Below are positions 25,256 to 51,868 of a stretch of DNA of 64,000 nt, piece after piece (position 1 is the first letter of the stretch; each line of letters starts with the position of its first letter). The stretch is from contig OX597816.1 of assembly GCA_951406725.2 (NCBI GenBank), positions 61,194,001-61,258,000 of the forward strand. The letters run 5' to 3'. The position numbers and the translations under genes were made by a program. Under the pieces are notes generated by a model. It ran no database searches. It saw nothing but the letters and a program-made list of their open reading frames with translations, and was not told the origin of the DNA. This stretch comes from Octopus vulgaris (Eukaryota).

Positions 25256-26840
25256 GTGAAAATTAATTTTCAATTCTTTACTCGGATATTTTGTTTTATT
25301 TTTGGGAGAATTCTCAACAGATATTTCAAAGTAATGATTTGCTAAATATATTTTTTTAATAGAATTGAAACCGATTCAGTTGTCTTGATGAAGTTACATT
25401 TTGATTAGTGTGCTAGACTGGAATTAACTTTTTTTTTTCATGCTGTTTGTGTTTGTTTTGGTATGTGGATCATATTTTTCTGTTGAGATAGCTGAAAGAA
25501 AGTTCTTTAGAAATATCAAACAATTCTAGTTTGCATTTATTGATTAAGAGAAGGCTTTTTGACTGTGGTCTGAGTCTTTATTCTACATCCTGATAGCCAT
25601 TGAAAGGTTAAGTGTGAAAAACTGATATATGAGTGTTGTGAATGCCATTAAGAGAGAACCTAAAAAAATTGAATATATAGTGTGTGTATATATATATATA
25701 TATATCAGTAAGGTTTTGCTAGGCCCTCATTCTCTTAATCTTAGTAGTGAAAGCCAAATGCTTATAAAAGCTTCAGTTTGTAAATGACTTAGTTTTCATT
25801 GCAGTCATAATCTTTGTAATATGATTACAATGATAGGGCTTGATTAAAAGTTCTGAAAGTAAACCTTAAAGATATTAATTGGTAGTAAGAGGCCACTGGA
25901 AACTTATTATTTAGGGGAATAGCTATGTTGAGTATTTAAGAAAATAAGTAGCAATTCTTTATCATATAGTCAATGATGAAATGAAACCTTTGACTGATAG
26001 GCAATCAAAATAGTTTCTAGCCTGTTTAGTGATTATGTAGAAGTTCCTTAATTGTAGGTAAAAGAGTTGAGAATTAGTGTTTTATAATAATAGGACAATT
26101 GAGTGCAAATGTTCAGAAAACATTTAGTCAACAAAAATATCTTCTTGATGTGTCTAAGAGGTAACTATCCTGGCAAGGACTTACAATGCAACTAGATGCT
26201 TCTTGCTGAATGCAAAAGTTAAGTGTAGAACTCAATTTATGTATATTGTTAAGGTAGTAGACAAGTCTTAGAATATTAATTAACTTGTATGATGTAAAGT
26301 CTAGATATATGGATAATGCTCTACTGCAGAAACTCCCAGCCTATGTTGTTATGGAAATGCAGATGTTAAAAGTAGCTGGCTCTTTGTCCAAGTTATTATA
26401 CATAGGTGTGTGTAGGCCTGTGGTTATGTGATTAAGGTATTCAGCTCATGATTGTAAGGTTGTGAGTTCAATACCTGGCAGCATGTGTCCTTGAGCCAAA
26501 CACTTTATTTCATATTGCTCTGGTCCATTCAGCTGACAAAAATGAGTTATCATGCTGATTCTCTCTGAGAACCATGTTAAGGGTTTGTGTGTCTAAGTTT
26601 GAATGCTTTTGGCATAAACCCTGCTAAAAACTAGTATGGACCAAACTAGTTAAACCGGTTAGTTGATTAGGTTCACCATTCAAGAATTACTTTCTTTAGT
26701 CTCTGTTCCATTCCCTTTTCTCTTTTGTTTTGTTTGTTTTTTTTTTGCTTCTATAAGAATATTTGAGTAATGTTTTTTAAAGCAGAAAGGAAATAAAATC
26801 AAAAGTATATTTGAGTTTTCTAATATTTATTTTATTTCAG

Positions 26841-27189
26841 ATTGGTGGTATCAGATTTTTGTATGATAATGTGATAGAATCCCAAAGCCGATTTAAATCC
26901 AGCAGTGGCTTTGGCTGTATCTTAGCTCATAGCATGGGCTTAGGAAAGACCATTCAACTCATTGGCTTCATTGATATATTTTTGCGTTTTACTGAGGCTC
27001 AATCTGTGCTTTGCATTGTCCCAATTAATACCATACAGAATTGGTTAGCTGAATTTAATATGTGGTTACCTGAAAAATCACCCGAGGACTCTGAAGATAA
27101 AGCTAATCTTGATGTCACAACTAGAAACTTCAAGCTATTTGTTATCAATGATAATCATAAAACAACTTTAGCTAGAGCAAAAATACTAG
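26841..27189 (+). CDS. RAD54L2: RAD54L2 exon 5 (Walker A and motif Ia)
   Basis: IGGIRFLYDN...GCILAHSMGLGKT...IVPINTIQNWLAEFNMW; tttcag acceptor and G|gtaagt donor. Confidence 0.96.
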
Positions 27190-29361
27190 GTAAGTAAATG
27201 TGACTTCTATTTGAAAAATAAATTTCTAATTATAGTGGAAAAGATTTTTGTAATAACTTTTTTTTTTTAGGTTTTAAAAAAAAAAGTCTTTGTCATAAGA
27301 GAAAGGGCATTATCCATGATTCCTTTTAGGACCTCTGTGACTAGTGGGAGGAAGGAAGAAATTTATTTTCAGATTAAGGACCTGATCTAACTGCTTGAAA
27401 CAGAATGGCATTTGTTAAAGACACCCAGAGGGCCAGGTGGTGGTGTTAAACTGAACAATGAATTATCTTTATCATTAAGTAACAGCCTGATTGAGTATAG
27501 AAATCTGTTTGAGGGCTTCTAGTTTCCAAACATTTTAGCATTTTAGTTTCCTAAGGCTTGTCAGGAGACTTAGCAAATGAAGCAACACTTTTATAAAGAC
27601 ATGTTATGAGAACAAACATAGGTTGTACAAAGCAAGCTCAACTGATATCTTTGGTTATACCATGTCAATGATGTATGATGCTGGAAATATTGGGGTAAGG
27701 TAGACTTTCTTAGTGAAGTATAGCCAATTTGAGGTTGTTGGAGTACAGAGTGGAGAAGGAAAATCTGTTTTTTTTTATTTTTAATACCTATTATTAAAGA
27801 AAAAATGAATTTTCAAATTTTAATGATTATCCTTTTATCATTAAAACTTGTCCTGTAAGGGTGTATATTAGCTGAAGTTCAAACCCCAACTTGCTTTTTA
27901 TCCTCTCAGAAATAATGAAATAAATACCAGTCAAGTACTGGTATCAATTTAATTGTGGTTTTGGTTGAACCTAGATCATCATTTTAAAAATAAAATCAGG
28001 TGTCTTGTTATTTCCTAGTTTCAGACATGGTTCGTTTGCAGTAAAGTTGAATGTTTTAGTTCTCTGAAATAATTCTAGTTAGAATTAGTTTACTGCTAGT
28101 TGATTTGGTGAGCCCAATTTATTGAACTATTTTTCTGTCTTTTACAAACATGATGAAATGTATAAGATCCACAATTAAATTAGCTACTTTATGTTACACA
28201 TCTTCCATGAAGACCACAATGTTTGTTGAAGCCCATTGATGACCATACAATATCAAGTGCTCGTATAAATTATGGTTATTCTTGATGTAATATTTTATAA
28301 TAGAATTGAAAGCTGTTCTGGAGAATGAATCAGTTCTGCTTCTATTTTTATAATATAATTGCTTAGTTGAGTGAGAGAAAAATTCCCAAGACTTGAGGCA
28401 GCCAGTTCTTAAGTTTTCAAATTAGGATGACTGAATGTACTAGTTACTTATTTGGTCATCTATACCCACAAATATGTCCAGATTTCCACATAAATTGTTC
28501 GTTATGTTTATGCCAATAAGAGAGCATCTACATGGTTGCACACAACCTGCTAAATGTTTCAAATCACATTCTTCCATCAAAAAGAAAGACACATTGAATA
28601 ATATAGACCTAAAAACATGTATTTAACCTTGACCTCAGTACACCAAGTGTATATAGGTTTCAACTGGAATGGCTTGGATCCTAAACCTGCAGGTTCAGAA
28701 TTAATTTGTGGTTAAACTATAACCTTTTCCTTTACATTTCTTTTATTTAGTAAATCTCTTTGTCACTATCTATAGTATATTTCTAGGAGATGAGAAAAGT
28801 TGGAGTAAGGCCATTAGTGTATTTTCCAACTTGGTTTACCAATCATGTAGATTAAAAGCAAATTTGATCCCTTAACAAGATCAAACTTATTTCTACACTT
28901 CACTCTTTGCCTTTCACTCTAGTATCAATAAAACAATTTCTAGGAGTTGTTGATTTCATTGATTTAAAAAAAAGGGGTTTTGTATCATCATCATCATCGT
29001 TTGTCTGCCTTCCATGCTGGCTATCTATGTAAAAAGTTGGAAATTTGATTGAGATATGTTGATTACAAAAATAATCTGGAAGACTTCAAAGAAAATTTCA
29101 GGAACAATCACACTGCATGTAGACTATTTTACATGTGAATAAATACAATATATGCAAATGTTTAGCCACTTCATTATTCCTATGTTTACATATATTGAAT
29201 TTAATCAAGTTTAACAGTTAGTTGAAATTACTGGTGTCTCAAACTTTTTAAAAAATCAAAAACATTTTTCTTGTTAATTACAGATCAACTTTACATTTAT
29301 GTTTGAATATTATCTGATTTTAATGCAAATTTTCATTAATTTTATCTTCTTTTTTTCCAAG

Positions 29362-29532
29362 ATGAATGGAGTCGTATAGGGGGAGTACTTTTGATGGGAT
29401 ATGAAATGTACAGATTATTGGTAACAAAAAAGTGCACTTTTGGTCCTCCTCCTTCTCGAAGGAAAAAGAAGAATAATGAACCAATTATTATAGATATTGA
29501 GGAAGAAGATATGAATAAAAAATTACATTTAG
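29362..29532 (+). CDS. RAD54L2: RAD54L2 exon 6
   Basis: EWSRIGGVLLMGYEMYRLL...PIIIDIEEED; ttccaag acceptor and G|gtaaga donor. Confidence 0.93.
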
Positions 29533-30542
29533 GTAAGATTATTTAAATTTGATGTTTTGCACATATATTTAGTTCTGTTTGCCATTTATTTAAATAGAAG
29601 GAAAACTAGATTGTATCCTGAAAAGCAGGAATATCAAAAGATGTAATGATAATTAATGAATATCAATTAGCAATACAATACTTATATGATAGTATTAGTG
29701 TGACTGTACATAAACCATAGTTTTTACATCCATTTTTCCATTCTGACATGGATCAGAATAATCTCATAGCATCTCACTCATTGTAGGCCTCGTCATCTGG
29801 CACCGACAGCATCAAAGATAATCAGACAACTCTGTACCTAATATCGGCCTTCCTAGATATACCATGTGACAACACATGGAGTTCATGTTCCCAATGTGTA
29901 TTCCATTTTTAGCATGGTTTCTAAAGTTAGGTGCTTTTCCTATTACTAACAATTTGACAACAACAAAGGATTTTAATTACTTCTTGTATATATTTCTGAC
30001 ATCAGTACTTCACAATTTTCTGCTGGCCGATAACTAAGTTTTGTTAAGTAACTATTCAAACATTAAAAGGAAGAAATTCATTCCTTTTTCTTTTGCTATT
30101 TTACTAATGTAAACTTTCTAAGCATCTTAAATAAATTTAGTTCTTAGATAAAAAAAAAAGGAATTTATTTATTTATTTGTTGCCTCATCATGCAGATAAT
30201 AAAAAACAACCATATATGGCATTTTGAGAAATGTACATTCTAAAGAATGTTATTGGGATTTCGTTTGAAGTTATATTTCGGTAAATTTTTCAGTGAAAAG
30301 TACTAATCTGATATGGTCTTTCTAGTCAGTATGAAGATTTGAGACATAAGTTGCAGAGAGACAAAAATTTGAGGCATGAATTGCAAAGAGACAAAAATAC
30401 AGAATTAATAAGGAATTTAAATAGAACAAAAAAAAAATCTGTGAAGTGTTCAGGAAATTGTGTTATGTTAAGAGGCCACTTTATGATATGAAGCTGTTTT
30501 TTGGAAGTTCTTTTGTAATTATAACTAAATTATATGTTCTAG

Positions 30543-30657
30543 GCATTCAAAAAGCACTTGTGAATCCTGGACCAGATTTGATTGTTTGTGATGAAGGCCA
30601 TCGCATAAAGAACAGTTTATCTGGAGTGGCTCAATCATTGAAGAACATTAAAACAAA
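30543..30657 (+). CDS. RAD54L2: RAD54L2 exon 7 (Walker B, DEGH)
   Basis: ALVNPGPDLIVCDEGHRIKN; ttctag acceptor and AA|gtgagt donor. Confidence 0.96.
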
Positions 30658-30816
30658 GTGAGTTTTATTTAATGTAAAAATTTTCAAATATGTATTTCGT
30701 TTCCATAAGTTTTTTTGTTAATTTCTGTTGATGAAATATTTAAAATTGTGCAATGTTGATGATTATTGTCAGTAAAACTGTTCAATTATTGGAAGTGATG
30801 GGGGTTATTTTGTTAT

Positions 30817-30907
30817 ATTTTTCTCATTATTTTGATAGCATCAATTTTTCTCATTATTATTTTGATAGTATCAATTTTTCTCATTATTATTTTGATAGTA
30901 TCAATTT
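30817..30907. repeat. 30-bp tandem repeat, about 3 copies
   Basis: Unit tcaatttttctcattattattttgatagta. Confidence 0.9.
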
Positions 30908-31267
30908 CTTTTTCAAGTTAGCATAAGTTGAGCTAGTTTTATTTGGTATCTCTTGTCTCCAATTTCAGTGATTTATTTATAAGAATTAGTATTGGCCTTA
31001 CTTTATGTCATCCTTAGCTTACATTTACTTTGTGCACCAATGAATCCTATCTTATGAAGATTTTTCAATTATATTGCCTGATTAAAAAAAAAAATTGTTT
31101 TGTTTTTTTCTCTACCTAGTTCTTCTCTCACCCTCAATCTCTCAATTAAGGCTGTTTTCTTAATCTGAATTATCTTGAACTTTATACAATTGCTTGCTCA
31201 GGCACATTTTATTCCTAGGCAAGTTAAGTAAGGTTTTGGTGGGGAAGCATTGTGTTATATACCACTA

Positions 31268-32012
31268 TCATCAACATCATCATTGTTTAACATCCGCTTT
31301 CCATCCTAGCATGGGTTGGACGATTTTGACTGGGGGCTGGCGAACCAGATGGCTGCACCAGGCTCCAATCTTGATTTGGCAGAGTTTCTACAGCTGGATG
31401 CCCTTCCTAACGCCAACCACTCTGAGAGTGTAGTAGGTGCATTTTACGTGCCACCGGCACGGGGGCCAGTCAGGTGGTACTGGCAACCACCTCGCTTGAA
31501 TCTTTTTACACCTGCCACCAGCACAGGTGCCAGTAAGGCAACGTTGGTAACGATCATGCTCAAATGGTACCCTTTTACGTGCCACTGGCACGGAAGCCAG
31601 TTGGCTGCTCTGGCAATGATCATGCTCGGATGGTGCTCTTGGCACTCTACTAGCACAGGCACAAGTGCCAGTAAGGCGATGCTGGTAACGATCACGCTCG
31701 AATGGTGCTTTTTATGTGCCACTGGCACAGAAGCCAGTTAGCCACTCTGTCAACGATCACGCTCGTATGGTGCTCTTTGCACCCTGCTAGTACGGATGCC
31801 AGTCATCGAATGTGATTTTGATTTTGATTTCACTTGCCTCAACAGGTCTTTGCAAGCAGAGTTTAGTGTCCAAGGAAGGAAAAGGTATGCATAAGTGGGC
31901 TGGTTACGCTCCTGGCATGGGCCACAGGTTATGGTCTCGTTTGGCTTGCCAGGTCTTCGCAAGCACAGCATAATTCCAAAAGTCTTGGTCGCTAGAACAT
32001 TAGGTCTCACTG
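31268..32012 (-). mobile_element. 5-prime-truncated RTE LINE (ORF end plus 3-prime UTR)
   Basis: Reverse complement of about 41640-42274. Confidence 0.88.
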
Positions 32013-32374
32013 AGGAAATGACAAGGAGGAGGAAATGAGGAAATATAGTAATGATTAAATGAATTCTTTAGTTTATTACTTTTCCAATTCGTTAAATGCC
32101 ATGAATATATACAGTTAATTATTTTCTTCAAGTATTCCAATTCTCTCAAACTCTCACTACACATTTTATTAATAGGATCTTTCGTAATGTAGAATTCACA
32201 GTGTACATTCACCTGCTTTATTACTAGTTATAGAAGACTTTCTGCCTAAACTATTTTGGAGAGAAAAACCACATTGTTGTCAGTAAAGGAAAATCATTTT
32301 TGTGTTTGATAATTTAATCTTACAAATTAGATCTTTTAGCTAATGTTATTTTCAAAACAATTTTTTTTTTCAAG

Positions 32375-32602
32375 GAGAAGAATTGTACTAACTGGTTACC
32401 CGCTACAGAATAATTTATTGGAGTATTGGTGCATGGTTGACTTTGTGAGACCTAACTATTTAGGTACAAAAGCAGAATTTTGTAACATGTTTGAACGACC
32501 CATCATGAATGGTCAATGTGTTGACAGTACACGTGAGGATGTCACTTTAATGAGGTACAGAGCCCATGTTCTTCACAGTTTGTTGCAAGGATTTATTCAG
32601 AG
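32375..32602 (+). CDS. RAD54L2: RAD54L2 exon 8 (motif III)
   Basis: [30 protein letters not shown]...FIQR; tcaag acceptor and AG|gtaaga donor. Confidence 0.96.
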
Positions 32603-33788
32603 GTAAGAAATATTTTGAATTTTTACTTTTAATAAAGCAAGTGGATGACAATTGATAGATTACCAAATATAACATTTTTAATGTTTCGAATTAACCCTTT
32701 TGTTACCATCTTTCTGTTGAGGTACTATGTGTTTCTTTCAATTAATTTTAAATATAACAAAGAATTTAGTAAAATAACTAAGTTATTATTAAGCTAGTGT
32801 TCGGAACATAAATTGTGACTAAGGTTTGGTGGAAGATTTTGATTCAGAACTTTTGATAACAAGATATTTGTACTACAGAGCCAGGGGTGGTTTCAAGCAA
32901 GGTGGTATCAAATGGGTTAAATTCCAACTAGGTTTGACTTTGTCTTTCATCCTTTTGAAGTTGATAAGCACTGGTCAAATACTGGTTTTAATAGACTACA
33001 TTTCTCTCTCAAATTTCTGACCTTGTGCCTAAGAAATAATATTTAAGCAAAGTAAATAAGACAAATGGAAGTATGCTTAACAGTGATCAGTTTCATCCTA
33101 CTTTTGCTCTTTTAAATACCACTGAGCTCCACCTTCGCTTTTTAACATCTAGGGTTAATGAAACAAGTCTAGTAGTTTTTGTTGGGGTCACTTCAGTTAC
33201 CCATATACTAGTCTCCTATAAAAATTGGCTATATATTAAGGAAAAATTTTCTAAAAATAAAATTTTTTTCATGTATTTAAATCTTACTAACATGAATTTA
33301 TTATGGTCTGTGCACTGCACATTGACACATTATTTCCTGGCCTTATTTGATTTAACTGTTAACATGTCTCATTTATGTTCTACTTTGTAAATGAATAATT
33401 AACAATAGAATGAACATGCATCTGTATAAAAGAATTGCTTTATTGTTATGTAATATTCTTACTAACCTGGGAAAATGATTACGAAACTTTGCAAATAATA
33501 CTTTTGATTATCACAAAGTTATGAATTTCACTTAACAGTATGGAATATAGAAAAAACAAATTCTGTATTTTGGGTCTTAACAAACCAAACCAAATGATGA
33601 ACTAAAAACTGTTATGACATGTGCAATATAGCAAAATGGGCAAGTTATGACATTGACATCAAACAATAAACTGACAGATGTATATTTCCTGACAATTGTA
33701 GCTATGAGTGCCTTATGCTCGCCACCACACTTTTATCTCTCTATTTATTTGCACATGTCAAAACGATTTAGATGTTGTTTAATGTTAA

Positions 33789-34865
33789 CCCTTTCATTAC
33801 TATATTTCTGACCAAATTACACCCCTTATGTGTTTCAATTAATTTCTAATGTAATCATAAATTTAGTCTGGTTTCATTAAACAACTATAACTTTTTTATT
33901 TATCGATATATTAATCTGATTTTTGGAAGATAATTTAATGAAATATTCTCAACCAATTCTATACTATAATTTTTGTCACAAAGTGACTCTATTTGCAGGT
34001 AGATACAGGTAAATTCCACAAAATATAAAATTATTAAAATTTTGTTCAAACATCGCTATAGAAAATATTAGCTAATATTCAATTGGGTATACAACAAAAT
34101 TTTACGATAGAATTTGTTATTCTGGGTAACTTTCTGATACCCATAATAATATTTATGGCAAAATAGGCCTTAATTTCATTTAAGGTTGTGGGAAATAACA
34201 AACTATCCTTTCTTTCGTTTTGTTTACGTTTAGCGTAACGGTTCGTTTTCGCTGTAATGATTTCAAATAGGCTCATTCGAAAAAGTAAATAGAAATAGTC
34301 TAAGGCTTTACCCTTCTGGGAAAGTCTGTGGCTTGGTCCAGTTTCTGCAGAAAAATCACCGAAAGAAACAGTTTTTAAATTTTCACTCCATTCAGGTGCC
34401 AATTCGTTTTCTTTATCGCTATCGGAGATCTCAGATTCACTGTTTTCACTTTCGGAAAATGAAACATCAAATTCATTATCAAATACCATGTGCTTTTTTT
34501 TTTCAGTCATAGTTAGATTTATGGTCTTCAGTAGAAAATCCTTCGAATTCTGACTCGCTGCTTGATATAATGAAATTCGTATCCATTTTTTGTCAGAATT
34601 ACAAATTTTGAAAACACAATAGGAACAAATTTCGGAAAAAAATCTCCCAAAATTCACGGAATTAAAATTACACTTCGATTATTGTACAAAACTGTAGTTG
34701 AACTGTTTACGAAGTATAATACGTGTTTTCACGAATGTACTGAAGAGATTTGCTCCGATATTCTCATTTAAATATGAATAGGTAAATTCGGGCGGCTTTG
34801 GGCGGTTTGGTTTCATAAACCAAAATTTTTTTCGGGCGGCTTTGGGCGGTTTGGTAACGAAAGGG
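33789..34865 (-). mobile_element. piggyBac deletion derivative, copy 2 (inverted relative to 7667-8689)
   Basis: TTAA at both ends. ORF 34079-34657 carries a piggyBac-like acidic N-terminus and YFYLLF...TNRYA...TTLNEIKAYFAINIIMG. Confidence 0.9.
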
Positions 34866-36034
34866 TTAATATTTCATTTTGTAATTTTTACTTCCTGATT
34901 TAGTTTTGTTATATTTCATCTTAAATTTCTAAATTGTTAAATGACTTTCCATCCTCTCAGAAATAATAAAATAATTACCAGTCAAGTACTGGTAACCTAA
35001 GCTATATGACTATGCTTTTACTAAACTACAAGTTCTAGATTAATTTTCTTTTTTCTTTTTGTTATTTTTAGATATCACATTTTACTTTTAATTCCTATTT
35101 TTACTTAGCTGATAATTTTTTTATAACTGCCAGGTGGACTCTGGTTAAGTAATTAAACATTTTTATTAGAATGTTAGTGATATACTTTTCATTAACACTA
35201 TTATAGCATAATAGTTGTTAACGTTCTTAAAATATAAAAATAAACAAGAATTTAGGAGAATTTATTAGCGAAAATAAAATGAAAAGAGGGAAGCAATGAC
35301 AAGTGATCGAGACCTTTGGCAATTTGTTGTGCTTGAGAAGACACATCAAGCCAAGTGAAATTGTAGTTGTGGTAAGTGTCGGTGACACATAAAAGGTACC
35401 CATGCTGGTGACATGTAGCGTGGTTGATATTAGGAAAGGCTTCCAACTATAGAAACCAAGCCAAACTAAACTTGAGCCTGGCACAGCTCTCTGGCTGACC
35501 AGTTCCAGTCAAACTGTGTAACCCATGCCAGCATGGAAAACGGGTGCAAAATGATGATGAAATCTCTCAAAGTAGCATTACTCTTTGATAGGAACTCATA
35601 AAATATTCTGTGTTCATACATATTTTTTTAATGTTTAGTGAGGAAGCCTGAGATTAGGATAATTTTATGAGGATACTTGAGTTGTTTGTGGTTTGTTTCC
35701 ATGCTACTTGCTTGTAAATAAAAGTGAATGTTATAGCTATGATTGGTTCTTGTGTTTGTGATGCTGTGAGTTATCTTAGTTACCTAGAGACTGGATCCAA
35801 ATTGTAATTGCAACCAAGTGGACTTTTTTAATGTGAGGTTAAACTGTAGAGGATTAATTCTATTACCCAAATTGAGTCATTGAAAAAATATGAAGCATCA
35901 TATGTGAGTGCTGTATGTGCAATAGCAATATTGAATACATGGATAAGCATCATTAAAAAATGATTATCAAATCTACTTTCTTATTTTTTTGTTTTTGTAA
36001 ATTAATTTACTTCACATTCTTTTCATTTTAACAG

Positions 36035-36212
36035 GAGAGGCCATTCAGTCCTTCAGTTTAGTTTGCCCCCGAAACAAGAACATGTCTTTACTATCCGAAT
36101 GTCAAATATCCAAAGACAACTTTACAAGAAATTTATGGACTGCATTTCAGATTGTGAAATGGGAATGTGGGCAAGCTACAATCCCTTGAAAGCTTTCTCT
36201 ACATGTTGTAAG
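36035..36212 (+). CDS. RAD54L2: RAD54L2 exon 9
   Basis: RGHSVLQFSLPPKQEHVFTIRMSNIQRQLY...NPLKAFSTCCK; aacag acceptor and AAG|gtaatt donor. Confidence 0.94.
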
Positions 36213-36522
36213 GTAATTAATTTTCTGTAAAAACAATATTTATTTTATGACTTGCATTTGTCTGGCAAGTGAAAAATGTTTGCTTTTGCATTTTATAAAT
36301 TATAAGAAACTCTTCCTGGATTATCATTATTAAATTATGAAAAAACCTGAAATATCTTACATTAATTTGCTATAGAATTATATGTACATTTTTAAAAAAT
36401 AACTCTTTTTTTTTCGTTTGCTAAATTTAGAATATTGCATCTGAATTAATTATTGAATATTTTAAATCTGATTTTAATATAGTCTTTCAAAAAAAAGTAT
36501 TAATATCTATTGTCAAATTCAG

Positions 36523-38208
36523 ATTTGGAACCATCCAGATGTTATGTGGAAAATTATACAACATCAGAAAACTCTTCTTGAAGACAATGACTTGGATTTT
36601 GAACCTGATGGAAAAGTTAATGGTGTTCAGTCAGGTGGTAAAAAGAAAAACAAAACTATTGGCAACTCTACTCGTATGAATGCAAATACAAAGAAAAAAA
36701 TACTTCCTGAACCTATTAATATGAAAAATAATGCTCATAAGTGTTGCAGCAACAACAGATCAAATACAAGTGACAATTTGAACCTTGGTTTTCAACCAAA
36801 AGGAATGGGAATGAATAGTTGTAGTGGATCAAGGGACAACAGTTGTTGTAATTATAATTTAGGCCAGGATCTAGGGCTTTGCTGTAATTCTGGAATGCAA
36901 TCATGTAACAGTCCTGGGATGAATAATACACCTAGTGGTAATAATACTTGTAATGATAACAGCCTTGAACAGAACATGAATTTTATGAGTTCTAAGATGA
37001 GCAATATGAAGGACAATAATAACCAGTTGAGTGCTTCCTACTTAAGTTCAACTTGCCATAAGGATTCTAACAGTGGTATAAGTACCATTAACCAAGGTTG
37101 TCATATAAATAATGAACCTAGAGGAGATATGGTAAGAAACCTGGAGCCAGGAGAATGCATGACTAGAAACGAGTCCAGTCAGAATAATTGCATTAATAAT
37201 GACCACATGATTCCTGGTAGTCATATTGGTATGAATGCAAGTTGTGATCAAACTAATACAAGGCATCTAATGGACAGTGGAAGTATGAACAGTGAAAATC
37301 ATATTGGGTCTTTAGGTTATTTGAATACACATTCAAATAGTGATGCTCATGGTTGTTTGAATGCAAGTAGACATAATGATGTTAACAATGTTATGAATGC
37401 TAATGACCAAATGAATTTAAACTATGGTTTGAATTCTGGAAGCCATATGAGTGGCAATAGTATGAACATGGTTAGTAGAGATGTAATAAATTCCAATTGT
37501 GCCATTGGTGATTCTAGCAATTTAAATTCTTGCCCTCCTAGTGGTTTGAATTTTGGCAATCAGTCTCATTGTTATGATGCCACAAATAGCAATCATAACA
37601 TGGGCCTTTCCAGCTTGAAGTCTTGTGCAGCAAATACAAATAATCACTTGGGTGGTGGTAGTAGTATGAACTACATGAGCCATTTGGGACCTAATATCAC
37701 TGCTGGTTGTTCCTTGACAAATGATACCATGAAAAATATAAACATTGATAGCTGTGAACAAATAACAGACATAAAAAGTAATGTCACCTGCCAAATGAAT
37801 AACATGAATATAAATCCTTGTCAAATGAACAGTGATAACCAGAGTCATTTGAACAGTAACAACACCCTTGGTATGGGTAACATGCTGCTGAGCAATACGA
37901 ATCAGAACAATCAGGAATCAAAAGACGACTACAGCAGAGATATCGGTAGTCACATAACTCCCAACACTGGTTTGAATAGTTGTAGTAACAACACCCAGTT
38001 AAACACAACTGCTAAAGATTGTAAAAATGTAAATATGTGCAACAAAGTTTCCCAGAACATGAATATGCAGAGCACAAATATGTTTGGTGGCAGCAACTCA
38101 ACTGCTGGTGCTCATGTGTGCAACCAAAGTGGAACACAAGGAAATATACCTACTACAACTTCAACAACAGAGAAGAAGTTAGACAGCAATGTCCTTTCTT
38201 TAGACTGG
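36523..38208 (+). CDS. RAD54L2: RAD54L2 exon 10, 1686 nt: conserved IWNHPD start followed by a long Asn/Ser/Met/Cys-rich insertion
   Basis: ttcag|ATTTGGAACCATCCAGAT at the start, 562 uninterrupted codons, and LSLDW|gtaagt at the end. Phase 0 on both sides. Confidence 0.88.
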
Positions 38209-40165
38209 GTAAGTATATAAATATATGTATGTATAGAGTGTTTGAAGTGGTGTACAGATATTGTATTTTAAGAAGAAGGAGGCAGTCAGAATTTTGGATA
38301 ATTCTTTATTAGCGCTTTTATCTGTTCAGTGGAACTCTTCAGATATGATGCACAGAAAAATTCTTCAGCCTTATATACAAATCGAAAAAAGAATATTGTT
38401 TTGTTTTGTTTAGATGAAGAGGAAGGAAGGGAGGAGGGGGATGAAGACAGAGAGAAACGAAAGTAAAAGAAATCCTGTATCTTGGAGGATGGTCTTTGAC
38501 TAACATGTGGTTGATGCTAAATATATGTATATACAAATAGCAAAAGTAACTAATATGATCAGTAGAGCATCTCACAAAATACGTTGTGGTCTTATTTGTT
38601 TATGTCCATTTATATTCTGAGTTCAGATTTGACCTTGATTCACTTTGACTTTCACGCTCCAGGGTTGAGAAATGAAGTACTGGGGTTGATGTAATCAGCT
38701 ATACTCTAGAAGTGGTGTGGAAATACGACTACAGTTCAGTGACTGAAACCTTGAAAAAATATTTTCCTGAACTGGGAATCCATAGATGAGTCTGTGGTTT
38801 CTCACTCTGGACGAAACAGCTGGTCACTGTGAACCATTCAATTCTTTGAGCAAATCTTAACTCTATAAATCCTCTTTCTTAGTATTAGTACACAAGTACG
38901 CCCAAATTAGTAGTGTTTAAAGTAGAATGCTATTACAAAATGTGACTCGAATAAGATATTGTTTCAGCTAAACCCCAAGTTTAACTTGGCGTTTTTCTTA
39001 ATGTGTTTTCTAAAAGAATTAACCTCGTGCAGCATGTTTTGATATTTTGACTTATGTTGCTTTAAATTGATTTTGATTGTTATTAGATGGGTACCTAATT
39101 CAGATTTAATTTGAACCAGGAGTCTATTTTTCAACACTTTGATATTCAAGCCAGCTGAATCCGGCCCAAATATTTTTTTTGTTTAAACCGGCCAGATCCA
39201 GCTTCTCACACATCACATCATTAAAGTCTCGAAGCTACAAGACAGTACATGATGAATTCAAAACAATGGGAATAAATAAACATTACATTTAACAGAATAA
39301 TCTGTATACTAAATGGTTAGAGTGATAATGCTCTTAACTTCTAGATCACCATTGCTGATACATTTTTAGGTTACTTACCTTTACATTTCTCTTTTAGTGA
39401 AAGCAACCATATTGAGCTGACATCAGCAATGGGCTTTCGATAGGCTTATCAGCAAATATTATATATACTGTCATCATCATCATCATCATCATCATATTCC
39501 ATGCTAGCATAGACTGAATGATTTGACAGGATCTGATTGGTCTGAGGACTGTGCCATGCTTCAGTCTCTGCTTTTGGCATTGTTTCTATAACTGGATGCT
39601 CTTCCTAACACCAGCCATTTTATAGCATGTACTGGGTGGGTTTCTTTATGGCACCAGCACTTGTATGGTTGTCAAGCGGTTTGCAAGAATAAGTGCCCTT
39701 TCTACTGAGTGGAGCTACTGAGGTGAGTGAGATTGTTTTATGCTGGTCACTGAGATGTTGAAGTAAGAGAGGAACTGGTCTCTTGCTGTAGAGGTGCTGT
39801 GTGCCTGCTGACAATATAGAAGAGAAAGTAAGAGTGACTGGAGTGGAGTGGGAAAGAGATAAAAACAGTGGTGATGAGGTATTAAGGCGGACCCTCAATG
39901 TAAGGGATGAGTAGGAGTGAGCGAGGGAATAGAATAGGGAGTGTTAGTTGGTAGAGGTTGCCCTAGTGTATGGGATTCAGAGATGGTTGGAGATGGGGAA
40001 TGAGTGAGGAAATGAGGATAATGACTGAAGACAAATGATAGACTCTGTCCTTGATTTTTCTCAGTTTACAATGTGGTTGTCTATCAGTTATCAAAATTTG
40101 ATTCCATAGTGGTATATAATTTCTTTTCTCACTCTTGAAGATTTATGAGCTTATTAACAGACAAT

Positions 40166-42274
40166 TCAGGAATCACTGCAGAGTTGCTCAAAATATCTGG
40201 CGGTGTTGGCTTTAGCCTAGTCATCCATATAGTTAACCAGGTGATACACAAAGGAGTCATACCCAATGACTGGTGTAGCAGCACCACAGTCAACTGCTAC
40301 AAAGGTAAAGGTGTCGCTTTAGATACAAATAATTATAGAGTTATCAAGTTCTTGGATCAGGTAACGAAGGTCACAGAGAGGGTCATAGCCCAACTAATTA
40401 GGGAGAGAGTCAGTTTAGATGAGATGCAGTTTGGGTTCGTGCCAGGGAAAAGCACCAATGATGCTATATTTCTGGTAAAACAGCTGCAGGAGAAATACCT
40501 AGCCAAAGATAAACCTCTGTACCTGGCTTTCGTTGACATGGAGAAAGCCTTTGACAGGGTTCCCCAATCCCTTATCTGGTGGTCAATGAGGAAACTAGCG
40601 GTAGATGAATGGTTAGTGAGAGCTGTGCAAGCCATGTACAGAGACGCTGTCAGTAAGGTGAGGGTTGGTAATGAGTACAGTGAAGAATTCTGGATAAAAG
40701 TGAGGGTCCACCTAGGATCAGTCCTCAGCCCCCTTTTGTTCATCATAGTCCCCTAGGCAGTAACAGAGGAATTCAAGACAGGATGCCCTTGGGAGCTTCT
40801 CTTTGCTGATGACTTTGCTCTAATAGCTGAGTCACCATTAGAACTAGAGGAAAAGTTTCAGGTGTGGAAGCAAGGTCTAGAATCGAAGGGCCTTAGAGTC
40901 AACATAGCTAAACTAAAGTCCTAATAAGTAGGAACGCAGACAAACTACAAATCCCTTCAGGTAGATGGCCCTGCTGGATCTGTAGAAAAGGCGTAGGTAG
41001 AAACTCCATAAGATGCACCCAGTGCAAGCTATGCATACATAAAAGGTGCAGCAATATCAAAGGAAGGCTCACTAGGAAGATAGTTTTTGTATGTGCAGAT
41101 GCTTAGGAGCAATAAACACTGAAAATGTGCAGAGAAAAACTAGAACTAGTTGATAGCTTCCGTTACATAGGTGACCAAATCAGTAGCCGGGGAGGGTGCG
41201 CTGAAAGTGTAGCTGCTAGAATAAGAATAGCCTGGACAGAGAGCTCTTACCTCTACTGGTGACAAAGGGCCTCTTGCTCAAAGTAAAAGGTAGACTTTAT
41301 GACGCATGTGTACGAACAGCCATGCTATAAGGCAGTGAAACATGGGCCGTGACTGCTGAGGACATGTGTAAGCTCGCAAGGAATGAAGCCAGTATTCTCT
41401 GCTGGATGTGTAACGTCAGTCTGTATACTCGACAGAGTGTAAGTACCTTGAGAGAAAAGTTGGACCTAAGAAGCATCAGATGTAGTGTGCAAGAGAGATG
41501 ACTGCACTGGTGTGGTCATGTGGCGAGAATGGATGAGGATAGCTGTGTGAATAAGTGCCACACCCTAGCAGTTGGGGGAACCTGTGGAAGAGGTAGACCC
41601 AGGAAGACCTGGGATGAGGTGGTGAAGCACAACCTTCGAACATTAGGCCTCACCGAGGCAATGACTAGTGACCGAGACCTTTGGAAATATGCTGTGCATG
41701 AGAAGACCCGGCAAGCCAAGTGAGACCATAACCCGTGGCCTATGCCAGGTGTGTAACCAGCCCATTTATGCATACCTTTCCTTCATTGGACACTAAACTC
41801 TGCTTGTGAAGACCTGTTGAGGCAAGTGAAATTGAAATCGAAATCAAATTCGATGACTGGCATCCATGCTTGTGGAGCGCTAAGAATACAATCTGAGTGT
41901 GATCGTTGCCAGAGCAACAGACTGGCTTCCGTGCCAGTGACATGTAAAAAGCATCATTTGAGCGTGATCGTTACCAGCGTCTCCTTACTAGCACTTGTGC
42001 CGGTGGCACATGAAAAACATTTGAGCGAGGTTGTTGCCAGTGCCACTGGACTGACTCCTGTGCAGGTGGCACATAAAAAACACCATTTGAATGTGGCCGG
42101 TGACACATAAAAGCACCCACTACACTCTCAGAGTGGTTGGCATTAGGAAGGGCATCCAGCAGTAGAAACTCTGCCAGATCAGATTGGAGCCTGGTGCAGC
42201 CATCTGGTTCGCCAGTCCTCAGACAAATCATCCAACCCATACCAGCATGGAAAGCGGATATTAAATGATGATGA
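40166..42274 (+). mobile_element. 5-prime-truncated RTE-clade LINE with decayed reverse transcriptase, 3-prime UTR and (TGA)n tail
   Basis: QFGFVPGKST, AFVDMEKAFDRV, GSVLSPLLF, LLFADD and GRGRPRKTW motifs; ORF stop at 41723; in-frame stops and frameshifts. Confidence 0.93.
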
Positions 42275-42727
42275 GGAGGATTTAGATATTTAACTGTTTC
42301 AAGTTTTTAGCTTTCCTTGATGCAATTTGTTTTTTGTTTTTTTTGTATTTGATGGCAGTATTATCTTATTTGTTTGCATTTATAGTTTATATGCTTTGTT
42401 TAAAGATTCCAGTGCAGTGAATTCTCTTTATTTTTCAGTATGAATTCTTTATTCACTTTCTGTTTTGTTACTTCATCTCACTCTGAAATTTTCTCCATTT
42501 TGTTATTAAATTATCTTAAGTTAATTATTAGATAAATATTATCTAGTGGTAAGTTGTTGACATTAGGCTATAGAAACCATGCCAAAGCTGACATTGGAAC
42601 TTGGCATAGCCCCGCAGCTCACCGTATTCCCTCAAACCATTCAACTGATGCTAACATGAAAAACAAGCGTTTATTGATGAGTATAAATAATAAAGGCAAA
42701 TAAGAAAAGTATATCAAATTGGTTATA

Positions 42728-43110
42728 AGGCGCAGGAGTGGCTGTGTGGTAAGTAGCTTGCTTACCAACCACACGGTTCTGGGTTCAGTTCCACTGTGTA
42801 GCACCTTGGGCAAGTGTCTTCTATAGCCTCGGGCCAACCAAAGCCTTGTGAGTGGATTTGGTAGACAGAAACTGAAAGAAGCCTGTTGTTTATATATATA
42901 TGTGTGTGTATGTGTTTGTCCCCTGCAACATTGCTTGACTACTGATGCTGGTGTGTTTACATCTCTGTAACTTAGCAGTTTGGTAAAAGAGACCAATAGA
43001 ATAAGTACTATGCTTACAAAGAATAAGCCCTGGGATCGATTTGCCCGATTAAAGGCGGTGCTCCAGCATGGCCACAGTCAAATGACTGAAACAAGTAAAT
43101 GAGTAAAGAG
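42728..43110 (+). mobile_element. tRNA-type SINE, family 2
   Basis: Starts ggcgcaggagtggctgtgtggtaag; full length. Confidence 0.88.
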
Positions 43111-44035
43111 TTAATAATGAATATATGTTAAAAATTAGTGTAGACAAGCTAAACATTGAGAACTGGGCAAAAGACATTAACAAATGTAGTCCAGATGTGT
43201 GGTAGGTAGAATAGAGCTTTGGTTATTAGACATTGTGAGTAGTTTTAATGTGGGCATTGTAAAAAGTACCATGTTATCATTTTGTATGAAAACCATAGAT
43301 GATACATTACATGTTGAGAAATAAGATGCCTACTTTTTGTGGAAGTAAATAGTGTATTTTTGTTGTATTGTCTCATTTGTAGACCCTTCAGCAGGAGTTC
43401 AATGGATACTGTTTTTCAATTTTTTTTTATATTCATGACACCAAATATCCTACATCTCAATATTCTCCTGCTTAGAAAATTGGTTTTCCATTCTTAATGT
43501 TTTTTGAAATCTTTTTTGTTGAAAAAAGATGTACAAAATGTAAACATTCATTTGACTCGTTTAATGTCAGAATAGGTTTTTACAGAAAAAAATGAAGGCT
43601 TAAATATAATGAAGTTGACTTTTATTCGTGCTGGATGGTATAATGCTTACTTTTTCTGTATAGATTTACTAAAACCGTTAAATGGTTAACTACTTTTTGA
43701 AGTCTGACGTTCATGCTGGTAAACACGGTCTGGGCCATATTTTACATTGCTTTCTACTTATCGCAATGGAGCACCATTGATATACATAGTGATATGGATA
43801 TTCCTGACTGAAAAAAAATGTAACGATAATGGATAATCTTGATTGTATGTTTTTATTTATGTCTGTTTATTACTAAGCACAGTTTTAAGTCTGTTGTCGT
43901 ACTGTTTATGCCAATTTCGAACATTGGCTTCATTAACATAAAAATGCCTTCTGGCAGCTCTATTGTCACGTTCAAATGCATATTCAACATATTTAATTTC
44001 TCCTTCACAGTAAACAATTCATAATATACAATAAT

Positions 44036-44665
44036 GGTAATGACAAATTTTTAAAGTTTGCTTAACATTTTATAAGTGTGAAAGGGATTAAAATTTCGAT
44101 ACTCTGTATCAAAGGTTCTGACAAGAATAGGCAAAGAATTCTGTTTACATAATCAGTTTGATTGGTCGCCTTCCTCTTTCGGTTGAGTAAAGTGTCATCC
44201 AAGCTGATGTTTATTGGTAATTAAACTTAATTTTCAATACCTGTGTGTATTTATCAGCTTTGTTTTTGTTAGTATTTCTTATCAACAACTTTTCCTGTGA
44301 TCATGATTTGAGAAGAGGCACAGCAGTATGCTAAAGCTCAGACATAATCTCTTGTGGGCAAGAAATGTAAAATAAAGTTTATGATAAACAACACAAACAC
44401 TTTGTAATTTAATAGCTTTCAATGTGATACGTGTTAAACAGAAATTATTTTTAGTTATTGAAAATTTAATAAAATCTAATCATAAGTAAGTGAAATTATG
44501 CTAAATACAACTAAATTGAAAACCTTTTTTTTTCCTGGCTATATCGGCAATTCTGAAAACTTTTGGGTGCAAATTTTACATGAGTAAAAGATGTTTTTAA
44601 CAAATTCTATCCTGAAAATCACCTGTGTAAATTACACAGGTGTCAAACTACATGGGTTTCTACAG
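44036..44665. mobile_element. Inverted partial copy of the 4528-5887 DNA transposon
   Basis: About 630 bp is the reverse complement of about 4530-5195, with a small internal deletion. Confidence 0.8.
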
Positions 44666-46129
44666 TGAATGAATAAGCAATACATTTAACAGAGTAATCT
44701 GAATGCTAAAGGGTTAAAGTAATAACAAATATTAACTGACATGTTCTGTCACTGTTTTAAACAGATTTTGGGAAACGTTATATCTTTTACAGGTTTAGAC
44801 TCTGTTTATCATTAGATATATATATTTGGCCTATTATTGTTGTTTCATAAATCTGATCATTTATCCTTGTAGCTTGGACTAGTCCTATTTACTTTACATT
44901 GTTTATTTTATTTAAGAGACACGGCATCAGTTTGTACTAATATAATGAAGACTAGGGTATATGCAGAAATGAATGTAGATAAATTTTGTGAGATATGCAA
45001 CTGTATCAGAATCAAATTATGCTCAATCATTTCTGTGAAGAAACTCTTAGATATTACAAAATAGCATCTAAGAGATAGATATCATCTAAAAGATGCTAAC
45101 ACCCACACTCACTCACTCACTCTCTGTCCATAAATGAGATAAAAGTGGGTTGCTTTTTGTTAAACAAATAAGAAAAGGCAACAAAAATATTAAAGAAACT
45201 TAAGGGGATAATGATTGTATGCATATATACATATATAAACGTGATGGAAGCTGTTTATTATAATCATGGATAATGTTATCAGATGATTATTATCACCAAA
45301 ATTAGTAGATCCCAAATTCTTCATTAAATGAAGTAAAAGTCATCTGGATCTTATACATACAGGTTTAGGTCTTATCAAAATTTTCAAGTAAACCGCTATA
45401 ACCATTACAACTAATATATGAATTTTTACATAAGTCACAAGCAAATATCAAAACAAAAGCACATTAGCTTTGGAGACTTGATATTGATAAATAAATGATG
45501 ATGGTAGCAATTAGCAGTTGTGATAGTGGGGGTAGAATCATGTTTGTGCTAGGAATGGAGGTACTGTTGGGTTAAATTGCTTGTTGTGGCCAGCATTGTT
45601 TGTGTCTCAGCATTTTCACCTCCTTCAGTACTAAGTTGAGTACTTACACCAAGTACTGGCAAAGTTGAGTGCTTTGTGAGTACTTGGTGACCTTACACGT
45701 ACTTAGTATCATAAAAAAAAGAAAGCACCCAGTACACTCTAGAGTGGTTAGCATTAGGAAGTACATCAAGCTGTAAAAACCTTGCTCAGGCAGATATTGG
45801 GGCTTGTCACTATTCTCTGGTTTAATGGTTCCTGTCAAACCATCCAACCCATGCCAGCATGGAAAACAACCATTAAATGATGATAATGAGATGATAGATA
45901 CATACATTCATGCATACATACACACAGACAGACACAAACACTCATGAATGTTAAATGGTTGCTTTATCAGAATTAATGTGCTCTAAACTCTGAGATTTTG
46001 ATGACTTTATTTATTTTTAGAATGACTGTAGGGTCGGTATGAGAGGCTAGATCTGGCAAGTTTGAATATCAAACAGGTAGAATATTTGGGCTAGATATGA
46101 CTGGTTTAAATGCCATTGAGTTTTTGACA

Positions 46130-47234
46130 TAGGTTTTGTTGTGATCATTGTTAACAGCAGCACAGAGTGGCCAGAAGTATGCAGGTGCAATAAATCCACT
46201 GCAAAGATGACAATAAAGTTCCTGTATGAATTATTTTCCCAATACAGTGGTCCAGACACATTGGTATCAGATAATGGAACACAATTTACAGGTAGCAAAT
46301 TCAAAAATTTCTGCAAAATATATGCAATAAAGCATATTTTTATCCCAACCTACCAACGAAGCAGGTAGAAAAATTTGTTAATACTTTCAAATGAGTATCA
46401 GAAAAAGCAAGGGATGATGTAGGTAATGATAAAACGCTAATGAATTATTGAGGGTATATAGAGTAATACCCAAATGAATACCAGTTCAGGAATGTCTCCA
46501 GCTGAGTTATTGTTTGTGCGGAAAATAAAATCTATCTCCGATAAATTATTGCCAAGCAATATGTTTTCAAAGGAAATACAGAAAAGGCAACAAAAATAGT
46601 AAAGAAGGCTGGGAGGATGATTTTGTAACTAAAAGATTAGGAAACATGGTGTATGTAATTAAAGAACAATGTTGGGAACATAAGAGACACCTAAACCAAT
46701 TAAAGACTTGACATACTGAAAAATGAAAGGAAATACCAATGGAAGTTTGCTATGACATGTTTGAGATGCCAGCACCGATAGAGATTGAGCCTTGTAGAAG
46801 CAGCAGTAGAAAATGGAAACAGACAGTACACTTAGAAATAATGCCAAAATGAAAAAGATATTAAATTTTTTAAGAAAAACAAAAACAGAGAGAGGGAGAG
46901 TTGTTGGAAAAAGAAAAAAGAAAATAAATTTGACTTCTTATGGAAGTTGAAATCTCAAAAGGAGAAATGTTGTGATGAGAGTCTCACCATCCCCTTGCAA
47001 GAAATAGGCTGGACCGAGCAATTATAAATAATAGCGGTCAAAGTGAAGTTTGTGTGTTAATTCGAGTTGAGTTTGCAGTGAATTCGAAAGGTATCAGTTG
47101 GTTAGTTTGTATGGAATATTGATTGTTGGCTTGTGAAGAGATTGTTGGATTGTTACATTGTTATTATGGCTGCATCGTTATCTTGTTTACTATTACTACA
47201 CTGGTACAGTGTATCTAAATCATCTGTCACAATA
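46130..47234 (+). mobile_element. Gypsy/Ty3-like LTR retrotransposon remnant: integrase core, PPT and 3-prime LTR (about 46968-47234)
   Basis: EWPEV...PDTLVSDNGTQFTGSKFKNFC and MSPAELLF. Polypurine aaaaggagaaa is followed by TGTTGTGAT...GTCACAATA, with an internal TATAAATA at 47023. Confidence 0.8.
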
Positions 47235-47566
47235 TCATGGTGGTTCCATGACATATTGGAGATGGCAGATACAACAGGTTTAGTGGATGAGGTAAAATAG
47301 GTCTATAAAGTTAATTTACGCAGTATTGGTACACAGCTAGCTAGTTCAGAGTATCTGAAATTATTGTATTTGTAATGGAAGAGACACAGGCGGGCTAGAG
47401 TATATTAATGGCCTTCTGTTGATCTTAATAAATTATCCTGTCATTAATGTTTTTCTTTCTTTCTTTCTTTTTTTTCAGATTTAATTAAAAATGTGATATG
47501 TAATGTTTTCAAAAACATTTTACTGAGGTGGAAAATAAAATATTGTTTTTGTAATTTCATTAAAAG

Positions 47567-47685
47567 GTAGCGGAAATAATGAAAGACTACACACCAGAAT
47601 TACTGGAAAATGGTGGTAAAATGGTATTGCTCTTCAGCCTTATTGAAGAATCTTTGAAAGTTAGTGATAAGATGTTGGTTTTCAG
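47567..47685 (+). CDS. RAD54L2: RAD54L2 exon 11 (start of helicase C lobe, motif IV)
   Basis: VAEIMKDYTPELLENGGKMVLLFSLIEESLKVSDKMLVFS; weak taaaag acceptor and AG|gtaagt donor. Confidence 0.9.
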
Positions 47686-48016
47686 GTAAGTGAAATTATA
47701 AGGAAAATTTTAACATATGGTGTATATTTTTATCACATTTTAATATCTATATTAAGCATTTCAGCTGCTAGCCTTAACTTGTAATTCCCATTTTTTTTAC
47801 CTAACTTGTTTCTTTTCTTAATTTGTACTCTAATTATCATCTAATATCAGCTTGGACCTTTTTTCTATCACCTGCTGTTACTTAATTTGAATATTGACTC
47901 TCACACATGCGACTGATGCCACATGCAACAATCACAGTAGAAGAGGATCCTTTCTATTAAAAGCAAGCTAAATATTTCAAACCCTTTTAAGTTTAATCAG
48001 TGTAATAATAATAATA

Positions 48017-48497
48017 TTTTGTTTTGGTATAAAAGATGGGATACTGCAAATATTCTTGCTCAGTACCACAAATTTGCTTGTCAGTTGTTTAACTGTAACC
48101 AGTTGAGCATGTCCCTTAGTGGCTGATAATATGTGCGTCTCTGTTCATGAGCAGAAGTAGTGGGTGGGGTATCAAAGCCATGTGTGGAGAGGAATTCTTT
48201 GGGGTTTGGGTAATTCACTTCTGGTAACATGGGTGTCTCGTTCAACATCCTTAAACAACTCTAATTTAGGGACCTTTTGAATGGGATGAGCTACTCAACC
48301 TGAAGAAAATTCTGACTGGGCCCCACATGAAAGGTTGTGCACTGTTCATCTTGATATGAGATAACCATGCTGTTCACATATGGTTGTGATGCATGTGCCT
48401 AGTGTATCCTTATCAGACAGGTAGTCATGATGGGTATACTGGGCTTTCTATATTTACTCCAGTGTCACTTTGATGGCATGCACTGCTCTCTCACGCA

Positions 48498-48536
<39 letters not shown>

Positions 48537-48810
48537 GTCTTATGTAGTACCAGGCACTGGCTCTCATAGCTTCTGATCTTAACTGATTGTAAGTGTTATC
48601 ATGTACATGTTTTGTCTTGGTATAAAAGGTGGCCTACAGCAAATATTCTGCTCAATACCACAGATCTGCTTGACTGTAACCAGTTGAGCATGTCTCTTAG
48701 TGGCTGACGATATGTGCATCTCTGATCACGAGCAGAAGTAGTGGAGGGAGCATCATTGCCATGTGTTGAAAGGAATTCTTTGGGGTTAGGGATTCTCTGG
48801 AAGCATGGAT
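48017..48810 (+). repeat. Two tandem partial copies of a non-LTR-like 3-prime end with a (TAA)n tail
   Basis: 48017-48230 is similar to 48610-48810; (TAA)n at 48500-48534. Confidence 0.6.
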
Positions 48811-51860: not shown

Positions 51861-51868
51861 TGCTGGAT

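What the first reader, a model, noticed from the sequence alone, without database searches (positions are those of the whole stretch)
36523..38208. About 560-aa Asn/Ser/Met/Cys-rich exon inserted between the two RecA lobes of RAD54L2
Seen: one stop-free 1686-nt exon in AT-rich DNA, starting with conserved IWNHPD and ending LSLDW just before the ENGGKMVLL of lobe 2. Asn is roughly one residue in five or six by eye, with many Met, Ser, Gly and Cys (several CC pairs) and few charged residues in the middle. Knowledge: this is the SNF2 major insertion site, and as I recall the vertebrate RAD54L2 linker here is under about 100 aa. Inference: a lineage-specific, prion-like or redox/metal-sensitive disordered module on a chromatin/TOP2-related ATPase, possibly affecting condensate formation or lobe closure.
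Basis: partly seen in the sequence, partly recalled or inferred. Interest (0 to 1): 0.75.

Follow-up and report, generated by a model that had tools for sequence, protein, structure and literature searches.

The report
Overgrown motor loop in octopus RAD54L2
In octopuses a loop of about 70 residues on the DNA motor RAD54L2 has grown to about 560 residues inside one spliced exon; insects have lengthened the same loop as much or more, so it is a recurring, likely floppy add-on that likely tunes chromatin contact, not a unique octopus sensor.

Summary
The exon is real: 1686 nt, AG/GT ends, 562 codons, 19% Asn, spliced whole in contigs from four studies, and already in octopus ARIP4/RAD54L2 database models. 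It looks like an old exon that grew, not an inserted one. It maps to the lobe-2 loop that ATRX calls its disordered insertion region, which contacts histones. The loop is 120 aa or less in 108 of 119 first-set orthologs (mostly vertebrates and molluscs), 529 in Argonauta and 189 in cuttlefish. In 108 insect-query hits it is 230-1837 aa (median 566), so the 'equally long and widespread' refuter is met for length; my searches found no description. AlphaFold gives no fold. Octopus-Argonauta changes are far more conservative than a neutral model (z about 8), as in the protein's C-terminal tail. Cys and Met are not specially kept, all three CC pairs are lost in Argonauta, and prion-likeness is weak, so a redox or metal sensor is unsupported. 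The octopod flavour is a degenerate (G/S)-(M/L/I)-N-(S/A)-C repeat shared with cuttlefish. Best reading: a composition-constrained flexible loop whose conserved root likely keeps the ancestral chromatin contact. New variant of a known kind.

The parts
36523..38208 (+). Expanded coding exon of RAD54L2/ARIP4 (562 codons, residues 828-1389 of P0001): end of the WNHP helix, the lobe-2 disordered insertion, and the conserved LDW
36523..36660 (+). Conserved root (aa 1-46): WNHP helix, acidic EDNDLDFE patch, basic GGKKKNK patch
   Evidence: 32 identical residues in a row against Argonauta; a loose acidic DLD-like pattern in 231 of 231 orthologs and in 38 of 74 diverse representatives; helix predicted
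36661..38178 (+). Octopod-expanded Asn/Ser/Gly/Met/Cys core with degenerate (G/S)(M/L/I)N(S/A)C units; no predicted structure
   Evidence: no Pfam hit, no Atlas hit
37288..37353 (+). 22-residue block identical between Octopus and Argonauta; candidate short docking motif
   Evidence: a run of 22 or more arose in 0.6% of 5000 shuffles; chosen after the fact
36035..36212 (+). Upstream exon (RGHSV...STCCK), spliced to 36523 by a GT..AG joint
47567..47685 (+). Downstream exon (VAEIMKDY...ENGGKMVLL...MLVF), start of the lobe-2 core
16173..64000 (+). RAD54L2/ARIP4 gene, from the start codon to the window end; the last exons lie just beyond the window
   Evidence: tblastn of P0001 on the window and on L002

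Best explanation
This exon encodes the lobe-2 insertion loop of the octopus DNA motor RAD54L2, grown from about 70 to about 560 residues and spliced in whole; the long part is predicted to be disordered and likely loops out as a flexible polar chain that tunes how the motor meets chromatin and partners, while the short conserved root likely keeps the ancestral contact. Shown: exon, splicing, homology to the ATRX insertion site, length distribution, conservative substitution pattern. Inferred: growth by internal duplication of a short MNSC-like unit (present in cuttlefish, about three times longer in octopods); selection on composition (polar, uncharged, few aromatics) rather than on particular Cys or Met residues; a role in residence time or partner reach by analogy with ATRX and INO80. 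The same loop was lengthened independently in insects and a few other lineages, so the site is an evolutionary hot spot.
For: Single contigs join upstream exon, whole exon and lobe-2 exon in runs X2, X13 and X18; X7 and X1 also carry the whole exon with both splice ends; four studies in all. Octopus WNHP..LDW aligns to ATRX WTHP..PDW in 9L06; with the construct starting at 1251 the reported insertion 1905-2000 falls between them (my offset arithmetic, which also puts F1873 on an F). Deleting that region in ATRX lowers nucleosome-stimulated ATPase and sliding (bioRxiv 10.64898/2026.01.04.697590, passages). AlphaFold: pLDDT under 50 for 437-970 of the O. bimaculoides fragment with confident flanks; 29 for the exon alone. 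All ATPase motifs are present. Octopus-Argonauta changes in the core have mean BLOSUM 0.41 against -0.49 under a neutral two-lineage model (z 8.0); O. bimaculoides z 3.4 on 20 changes. [MLI]N occurs 30 times against 16.2 expected, and NSC is enriched in cuttlefish too; the C-terminal tail shows no such excess. 15 of 16 DNA repeat families in the exon are spaced in frame. The long label needs 5 changes on a 55-row tree, at least 3 forced.
Against: No functional test exists. The core is only 68-69% identical to Argonauta, the same as the N-terminal tail and below the C-terminal tail (79-80%). The C-terminal tail is similarly conservative (z 5.2), so the signal may be generic selection against harmful residues. 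Most animals do with 120 aa or less. The ATRX region is acidic, about 96 aa, and from a paralog; no paper I read tests this loop in RAD54L2. Low pLDDT with shallow alignments (5 homologous rows) does not prove disorder. No dN/dS could be computed because no relative's DNA was available.
Confidence: 0.5

Rival explanations
1. Tolerated filler: the surface loop accepts any benign polar chain, slippage in an AT-rich genome lengthened it, and selection only removes frameshifts, stops, charges and aromatics.
For: Identity to Argonauta equals that of the N-terminal tail; unrelated compositions in insects, Babylonia and coleoids, with no significant BLAST match between octopus and non-octopod loops (best E 0.36, to cuttlefish); AAT/AAC codons dominate; earlier unchecked notes report other giant exons in this genome.
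Against: Length is nearly stable (561 against 529) since a split calibrated at 29 Ma or more (PMC12682272, passage); substitutions are strongly conservative; a 22-residue identical block; [MLI]N spacing kept in Argonauta.
Confidence: 0.32
2. Cofactor docking arm, as in INO80/SWR1: short motifs in the core recruit an octopod-specific partner.
For: INO80 uses a long insertion at this location to recruit Rvb1/Rvb2 (passage); two blocks of 22 and 15 residues are identical in Octopus and Argonauta.
Against: No predicted helix or strand in the core; no SIM or SUMO site in the core by pattern; both blocks are absent from cuttlefish.
Confidence: 0.1
3. Redox- or metal-sensitive, or prion-like, switch built on Cys and Met.
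For: Cys 4.8% against at most 1.8% in 108 insect loops; Met 6.2%; Cys-rich in cuttlefish too (6.3%); His 3.6%.
Against: Cys kept 17 against 15 plus or minus 2 under neutrality; Met kept 14 against 17; 13 of 15 Met changes go to Ile/Leu/Val and 0 of 3 CC pairs are kept; no CxxC, Cx3C or Cx4C; Q/N maximum 26 per 80; PLAAC-like score 12 against an insect median of 36 (parameters recalled).
Confidence: 0.07
4. Artefact: an intron read through or a mostly skipped exitron.
For: One in-frame GTAAG donor-like site at 37132; contigs drop rare isoforms.
Against: Whole exon in spliced contigs from four studies; frame open in three Octopus species, an unnamed relative and Argonauta; use of that donor would lose the Trp that is invariant in 34 of 34 aligned rows.
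Confidence: 0.01

Closest known systems
RAD54L2/ARIP4 subfamily of Snf2 ATPases (PMC10699775, PMC10699776; passages read)
   Same: Ortholog: Pfam SNF2 and Helicase_C above cut-off, ATPase motifs present, groups with ARIP4 apart from ATRX-like rows, SIM-like patterns in the N-terminal part.
   Different: Lobe-2 loop 561 aa against 83 in mammals; TOP2 and SUMO roles are shown only in human cells.
ATRX disordered insertion region, 1905-2000 (bioRxiv 10.64898/2026.01.04.697590; PDB 9L06)
   Same: Same position between the W[TN]HP helix and the DW; disordered; closest solved structure (E 8e-131).
   Different: About six times longer, polar rather than acidic beyond the root; the residue aligned to the ATRX F1873 pin is Leu here; function untested.
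INO80/SWR1/SRCAP major insertion (PMC3781322 and passages)
   Same: Long insertion between motifs III and IV at the same location.
   Different: There it docks Rvb1/Rvb2; here no fold is predicted and no sequence match to it was reported.
Insect RAD54L2 orthologs (CG4049 family)
   Same: Long polar N/Q/S-rich loop at the same site, median 566 aa in the set measured.
   Different: Not alignable to the octopus core; richer in Q, P and Y, almost no Cys, more prion-like; likely a separate origin.

Membership tests
RAD54L2/ARIP4 | SNF2 N-lobe plus Helicase_C domain | tested here: met
   PF00176 162 bits, PF00271 63.6 bits on P0001
RAD54L2/ARIP4 | Intact helicase motifs (Walker A, DEGH, III, IV, V, VI) | tested here: met
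   all seven patterns found once
RAD54L2/ARIP4 | Groups with ARIP4 rather than ATRX | tested here: met
   quick lobe-1 tree, 55 rows, SH-aLRT 100 for the split; top named hits are ARIP4
RAD54L2/ARIP4 | DNA-dependent ATPase, SUMO-TOP2 binding | not testable with these tools
   only SIM-like patterns seen
Snf2 major insertion / ATRX DIR | Position between the NHP helix and the DW-SGK start of the lobe-2 core | tested here: met
Snf2 major insertion / ATRX DIR | Histone contact that stimulates ATPase | not testable with these tools
   shown for ATRX only
Intrinsically disordered region | No predicted stable fold | tested here: met
   pLDDT 29; under 50 over 437-970 with confident flanks; FoldIndex -0.04, marginal
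Q/N-rich prion-like domain | At least 30 Q/N in 80 residues (threshold recalled) | tested here: not met
   maximum 26; 70 of 108 insect loops meet it
Q/N-rich prion-like domain | PLAAC core score | tested here: inconclusive
   own approximation with recalled frequencies: 12.2, positive but below the C-terminal tail (19.2) and insects (median 36)
Cys-based metal-binding or redox module | Conserved, patterned Cys/His ligands (CxxC, CC) | tested here: not met
   0 CxxC, Cx3C, Cx4C; 0 of 3 CC kept; Cys retention not above neutral
INO80/SWR1-type Rvb-docking insertion | Structured insertion that binds Rvb1/Rvb2 | tested here: inconclusive
   no structure predicted; binding not tested

The most novel reading that the evidence does not exclude
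The lobe-2 loop of RAD54L2 is a repeatedly reinvented regulatory arm. Insects (Q/N/Y/P-rich, up to 1,800 aa) and coleoid cephalopods (MNSC-type repeats) separately built a long low-complexity chain at the spot where ATRX grips histones, and use it to concentrate or gate the motor on chromatin, with the octopod Cys/Met version possibly oxidation-tunable.
Probability: 0.2. Interest if true: 0.65.

Novelty: new variant of a known kind. Interest (0 to 1): 0.36.

Why it matters
The site is functionally important in the closest paralog, ATRX, and in INO80/SWR1. Repeated 5- to 25-fold growth of this loop in RAD54L2 gives a natural series (about 50 to 1,800 aa, several chemistries) for asking whether the length and composition of a disordered insert tune a Snf2 motor. 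It is testable in Drosophila CG4049 or by loop swaps in human RAD54L2 knockout cells. The octopus exon alone is one instance, already in database gene models, and not evidence of a cephalopod-specific sensor.

Tried and rejected
No listed run was on record as RNA; transcription is inferred from spliced joints only. Tandem Repeats Finder found two weak arrays of 19 and 30 nt, no real tandem array. Pfam, ESM Atlas (low recognition score, uninformative) and Rfam gave nothing for the insert. The fold search returned only Snf2-family ATPases at Z up to 17 and did not test the insert. dN/dS was not computable. Flaus et al. 2006 was not held, so the block C/K definition rests on one passage of bioRxiv 10.1101/2023.08.09.551721 and on recall. 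Searches for a published description found none: 5 papers, none on this by title or abstract start; 0; 0; 5, listing only; 0; 0; most subscription papers are not searched. The one-direction neutral simulation overstates gain counts, so I rely on the two-lineage version for symmetric measures. The careful tree did not finish; the quick tree is reported, with Strigamia dropped and a 180-aa cut-off that I chose. Earlier findings near this place, by words and by sequence: none.

Full report
Observation. Window 36523-38208 is a 1686-nt stretch flanked by AG and GT, phase 0 at both ends, that reads 562 codons from IWNHPD to LSLDW; the other five frames hold 19-80 stops. Asn is 19.0%, Ser 13.0%, Gly 8.0%, Met 6.2%, Cys 4.8%, with three CC pairs. 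The start of the exon matches once in the genome. The lobe-2 exon follows at 47567 after 9358 nt.

Identity. The peptide is 100% identical to part of a 2248-aa protein labelled Octopus vulgaris helicase ARIP4; Argonauta matches at 66% over the whole query and cuttlefish over a quarter of it. O. sinensis and O. bimaculoides models carry it too. Pfam domains and ATPase motifs are intact, and a quick lobe-1 tree of 55 rows puts it with ARIP4, apart from ATRX-like rows.

Splicing. No run was on record as RNA, but spliced joints show transcripts. Of six transcript-like runs laid, three (X2, X13, X18) have one contig joining upstream exon, whole exon and lobe-2 exon with contiguous coordinates. X7 and X1 carry the GT..AG joint and the whole exon running on into the next exon. 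X3 shows one contig over 36592-38211 only, in a cut table. That is four studies. In one search the only joint listed is the normal intron; the joint table was cut (447 rows hidden). Contigs drop rare isoforms, so a minor exitron is not excluded.

Where it sits. Octopus WNHP and LDW align to WTHP and PDW of ATRX in 9L06. The ATRX construct starts at 1251; with that offset the reported disordered insertion region 1905-2000 lies between the two anchors and ends at the DW. The preprint places it within lobe 2, shows histone contact, reports lower ATPase and sliding on deletion, and notes that INO80 has a longer insertion at the same place for Rvb1/Rvb2 (bioRxiv 10.64898/2026.01.04.697590, passages). 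[quoted passage not shown] Three unrelated records break right after the C-K that precedes IWNHP and two run into other sequence just before the post-W residue, which suggests that both exon borders are old. I infer an exon that grew.

How unusual. I measured W(NHP) to the W before lobe 2. In the first set (127 proteins; best 120 of 964 hits plus cluster members) 119 could be measured: 108 are 120 aa or less (median 74 over all 119; mammals 83); the 11 longer ones are five Octopus entries (561), Argonauta 529, cuttlefish 189, Babylonia 305, two beetles (440, 446) and a bee (823). In the beetle-query set (best 120 of 1502 hits, 117 new) 112 were measured and 108 anchored on W: 230-1837 aa, median 566, 105 of 108 at 300 or more, 58 of 108 at 561 or more. 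All named rows there are insects; some rows are unnamed, and the set is biased to close hits. Among 74 diverse representatives 49 are 120 or less and 13 are 180 or more. Named points: horseshoe crab 90, tick 133, centipede 115, mayfly 232, Scaptodrosophila 226, nemertean 80, Lottia 48, C. remanei 149, Mesorhabditis 312, a choanoflagellate 339. The long label needs 5 changes on the tree, at least 3 forced by strong branches. Octopus and insect loops do not align. So the length is matched or exceeded across insects, likely by convergence.

What it is made of. AlphaFold gives pLDDT 29 for the exon alone. In a 1016-aa O. bimaculoides fragment the lobe and both flanking helices are confident while 437-970 stays under 50. 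There is no Pfam or Atlas match. The core has a recurring unit: [MLI]N 30 times against 16.2 expected (p 0.0005), [GS][MLI]N[SA] 5 against 0.7, and NSC 5 against 0.5 in cuttlefish, where MNSC repeats are plain to see (16 patterns tried after viewing the sequence). The protein's C-terminal tail shows no such excess, and 1 of 8 other long loops does weakly. 15 of 16 short DNA repeat families are spaced in frame. Growth by internal duplication of a short unit, in two steps (coleoid, then octopod), is my inference from only one decapod sequence.

Selection. The core is 96% identical to O. bimaculoides and 68-69% to Argonauta, against 69% for the N-terminal tail, 79-80% for the C-terminal tail and 92-94% for the lobes. 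Changes are much more conservative than a neutral two-lineage codon model (mean BLOSUM 0.41 against -0.49, z 8.0; N-tail z 2.5; C-tail z 5.2). The model is simple and this is not dN/dS. Cys is kept 17 of 22 times (neutral 15 plus or minus 2), Met 14 of 29 in the core (neutral 17), 13 of 15 Met changes over the exon go to Ile, Leu or Val, and no CC pair survives in Argonauta. There is no CxxC. Q/N peaks at 26 per 80 and aromatics are 2.7%, against a median of 32 and 8.4% in insects (thresholds and PLAAC-like weights recalled). One 22-residue block is identical in Argonauta (p about 0.006).

Mechanism. Most likely (0.5) the motor folds normally, the conserved root with its acidic and basic patches keeps the ancestral chromatin-side contact, and the core loops out as a polar chain whose composition matters and which tunes residence or partner reach. 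Rivals: tolerated filler (0.32), cofactor-docking arm (0.10), redox, metal or prion switch (0.07), artefact (0.01). Human RAD54L2 needs its ATPase and SIMs to remove TOP2 (PMC10699775, PMC10699776; passages); nothing I read tests this loop.

Novelty. The exon is in public gene models. I found no paper describing the expansion in cephalopods or insects (open-access library only; no supplements were read). Earlier unchecked notes report other giant exons in this genome, which would make this one of a series. Verdict: new variant of a known kind, interest 0.36; the recurring expansion at a site that is functional in ATRX is the more interesting part.

Noticed in passing
window 37696: A>G in one contig of run X1 (Ile to Val codon), absent from X7 and from DNA-like runs X15 and X17; A-to-I recoding or a private allele. 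37693 A>G (Asn to Asp) is in DNA-like runs and in the O. sinensis protein, so it is a SNP.
   Followed up: no
window 36033-38211, run X1: Contig depth falls from 22.7 (upstream exon) and 18.2 (junction) to 4.9 over the long exon; a retained-intron contig of depth 2 covers 36183-36550. The tool warns against ranking by depth.
   Followed up: no
window 37132: In-frame donor-like ATG|GTAAGA inside the exon; use would drop the invariant Trp; no such joint listed.
   Followed up: partly
window 38208-38212 and 47567-47570: Two database isoforms differ only by VAEIM against VTEIM, which fits both splice sites shifted by 4 nt; the contigs laid read VAEIM.
   Followed up: partly
proteins P0181, P0190, P0180, P0175: Stink-bug (Nezara, Halyomorpha) and unnamed orthologs carry 1,666-1,837 aa of Q/N/H-rich sequence at this site, the longest seen.
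   Followed up: no
proteins P0163, P0169: Cricket and stick-insect loops converge on an octopus-like N/S/G/M composition (Met 5-6%) without aligning.
   Followed up: partly
P0001 residues about 818-829: The position aligned to the ATRX DNA-intercalating F1873 is Leu in octopus RAD54L2.
   Followed up: no
window 18936-19729, 56563-57132, 59573-60432, 40139-40756, 34079-34678: Intronic open frames that look like Tc1/mariner transposase, reverse-transcriptase and piggyBac-like remnants (recognised from recall).
   Followed up: no
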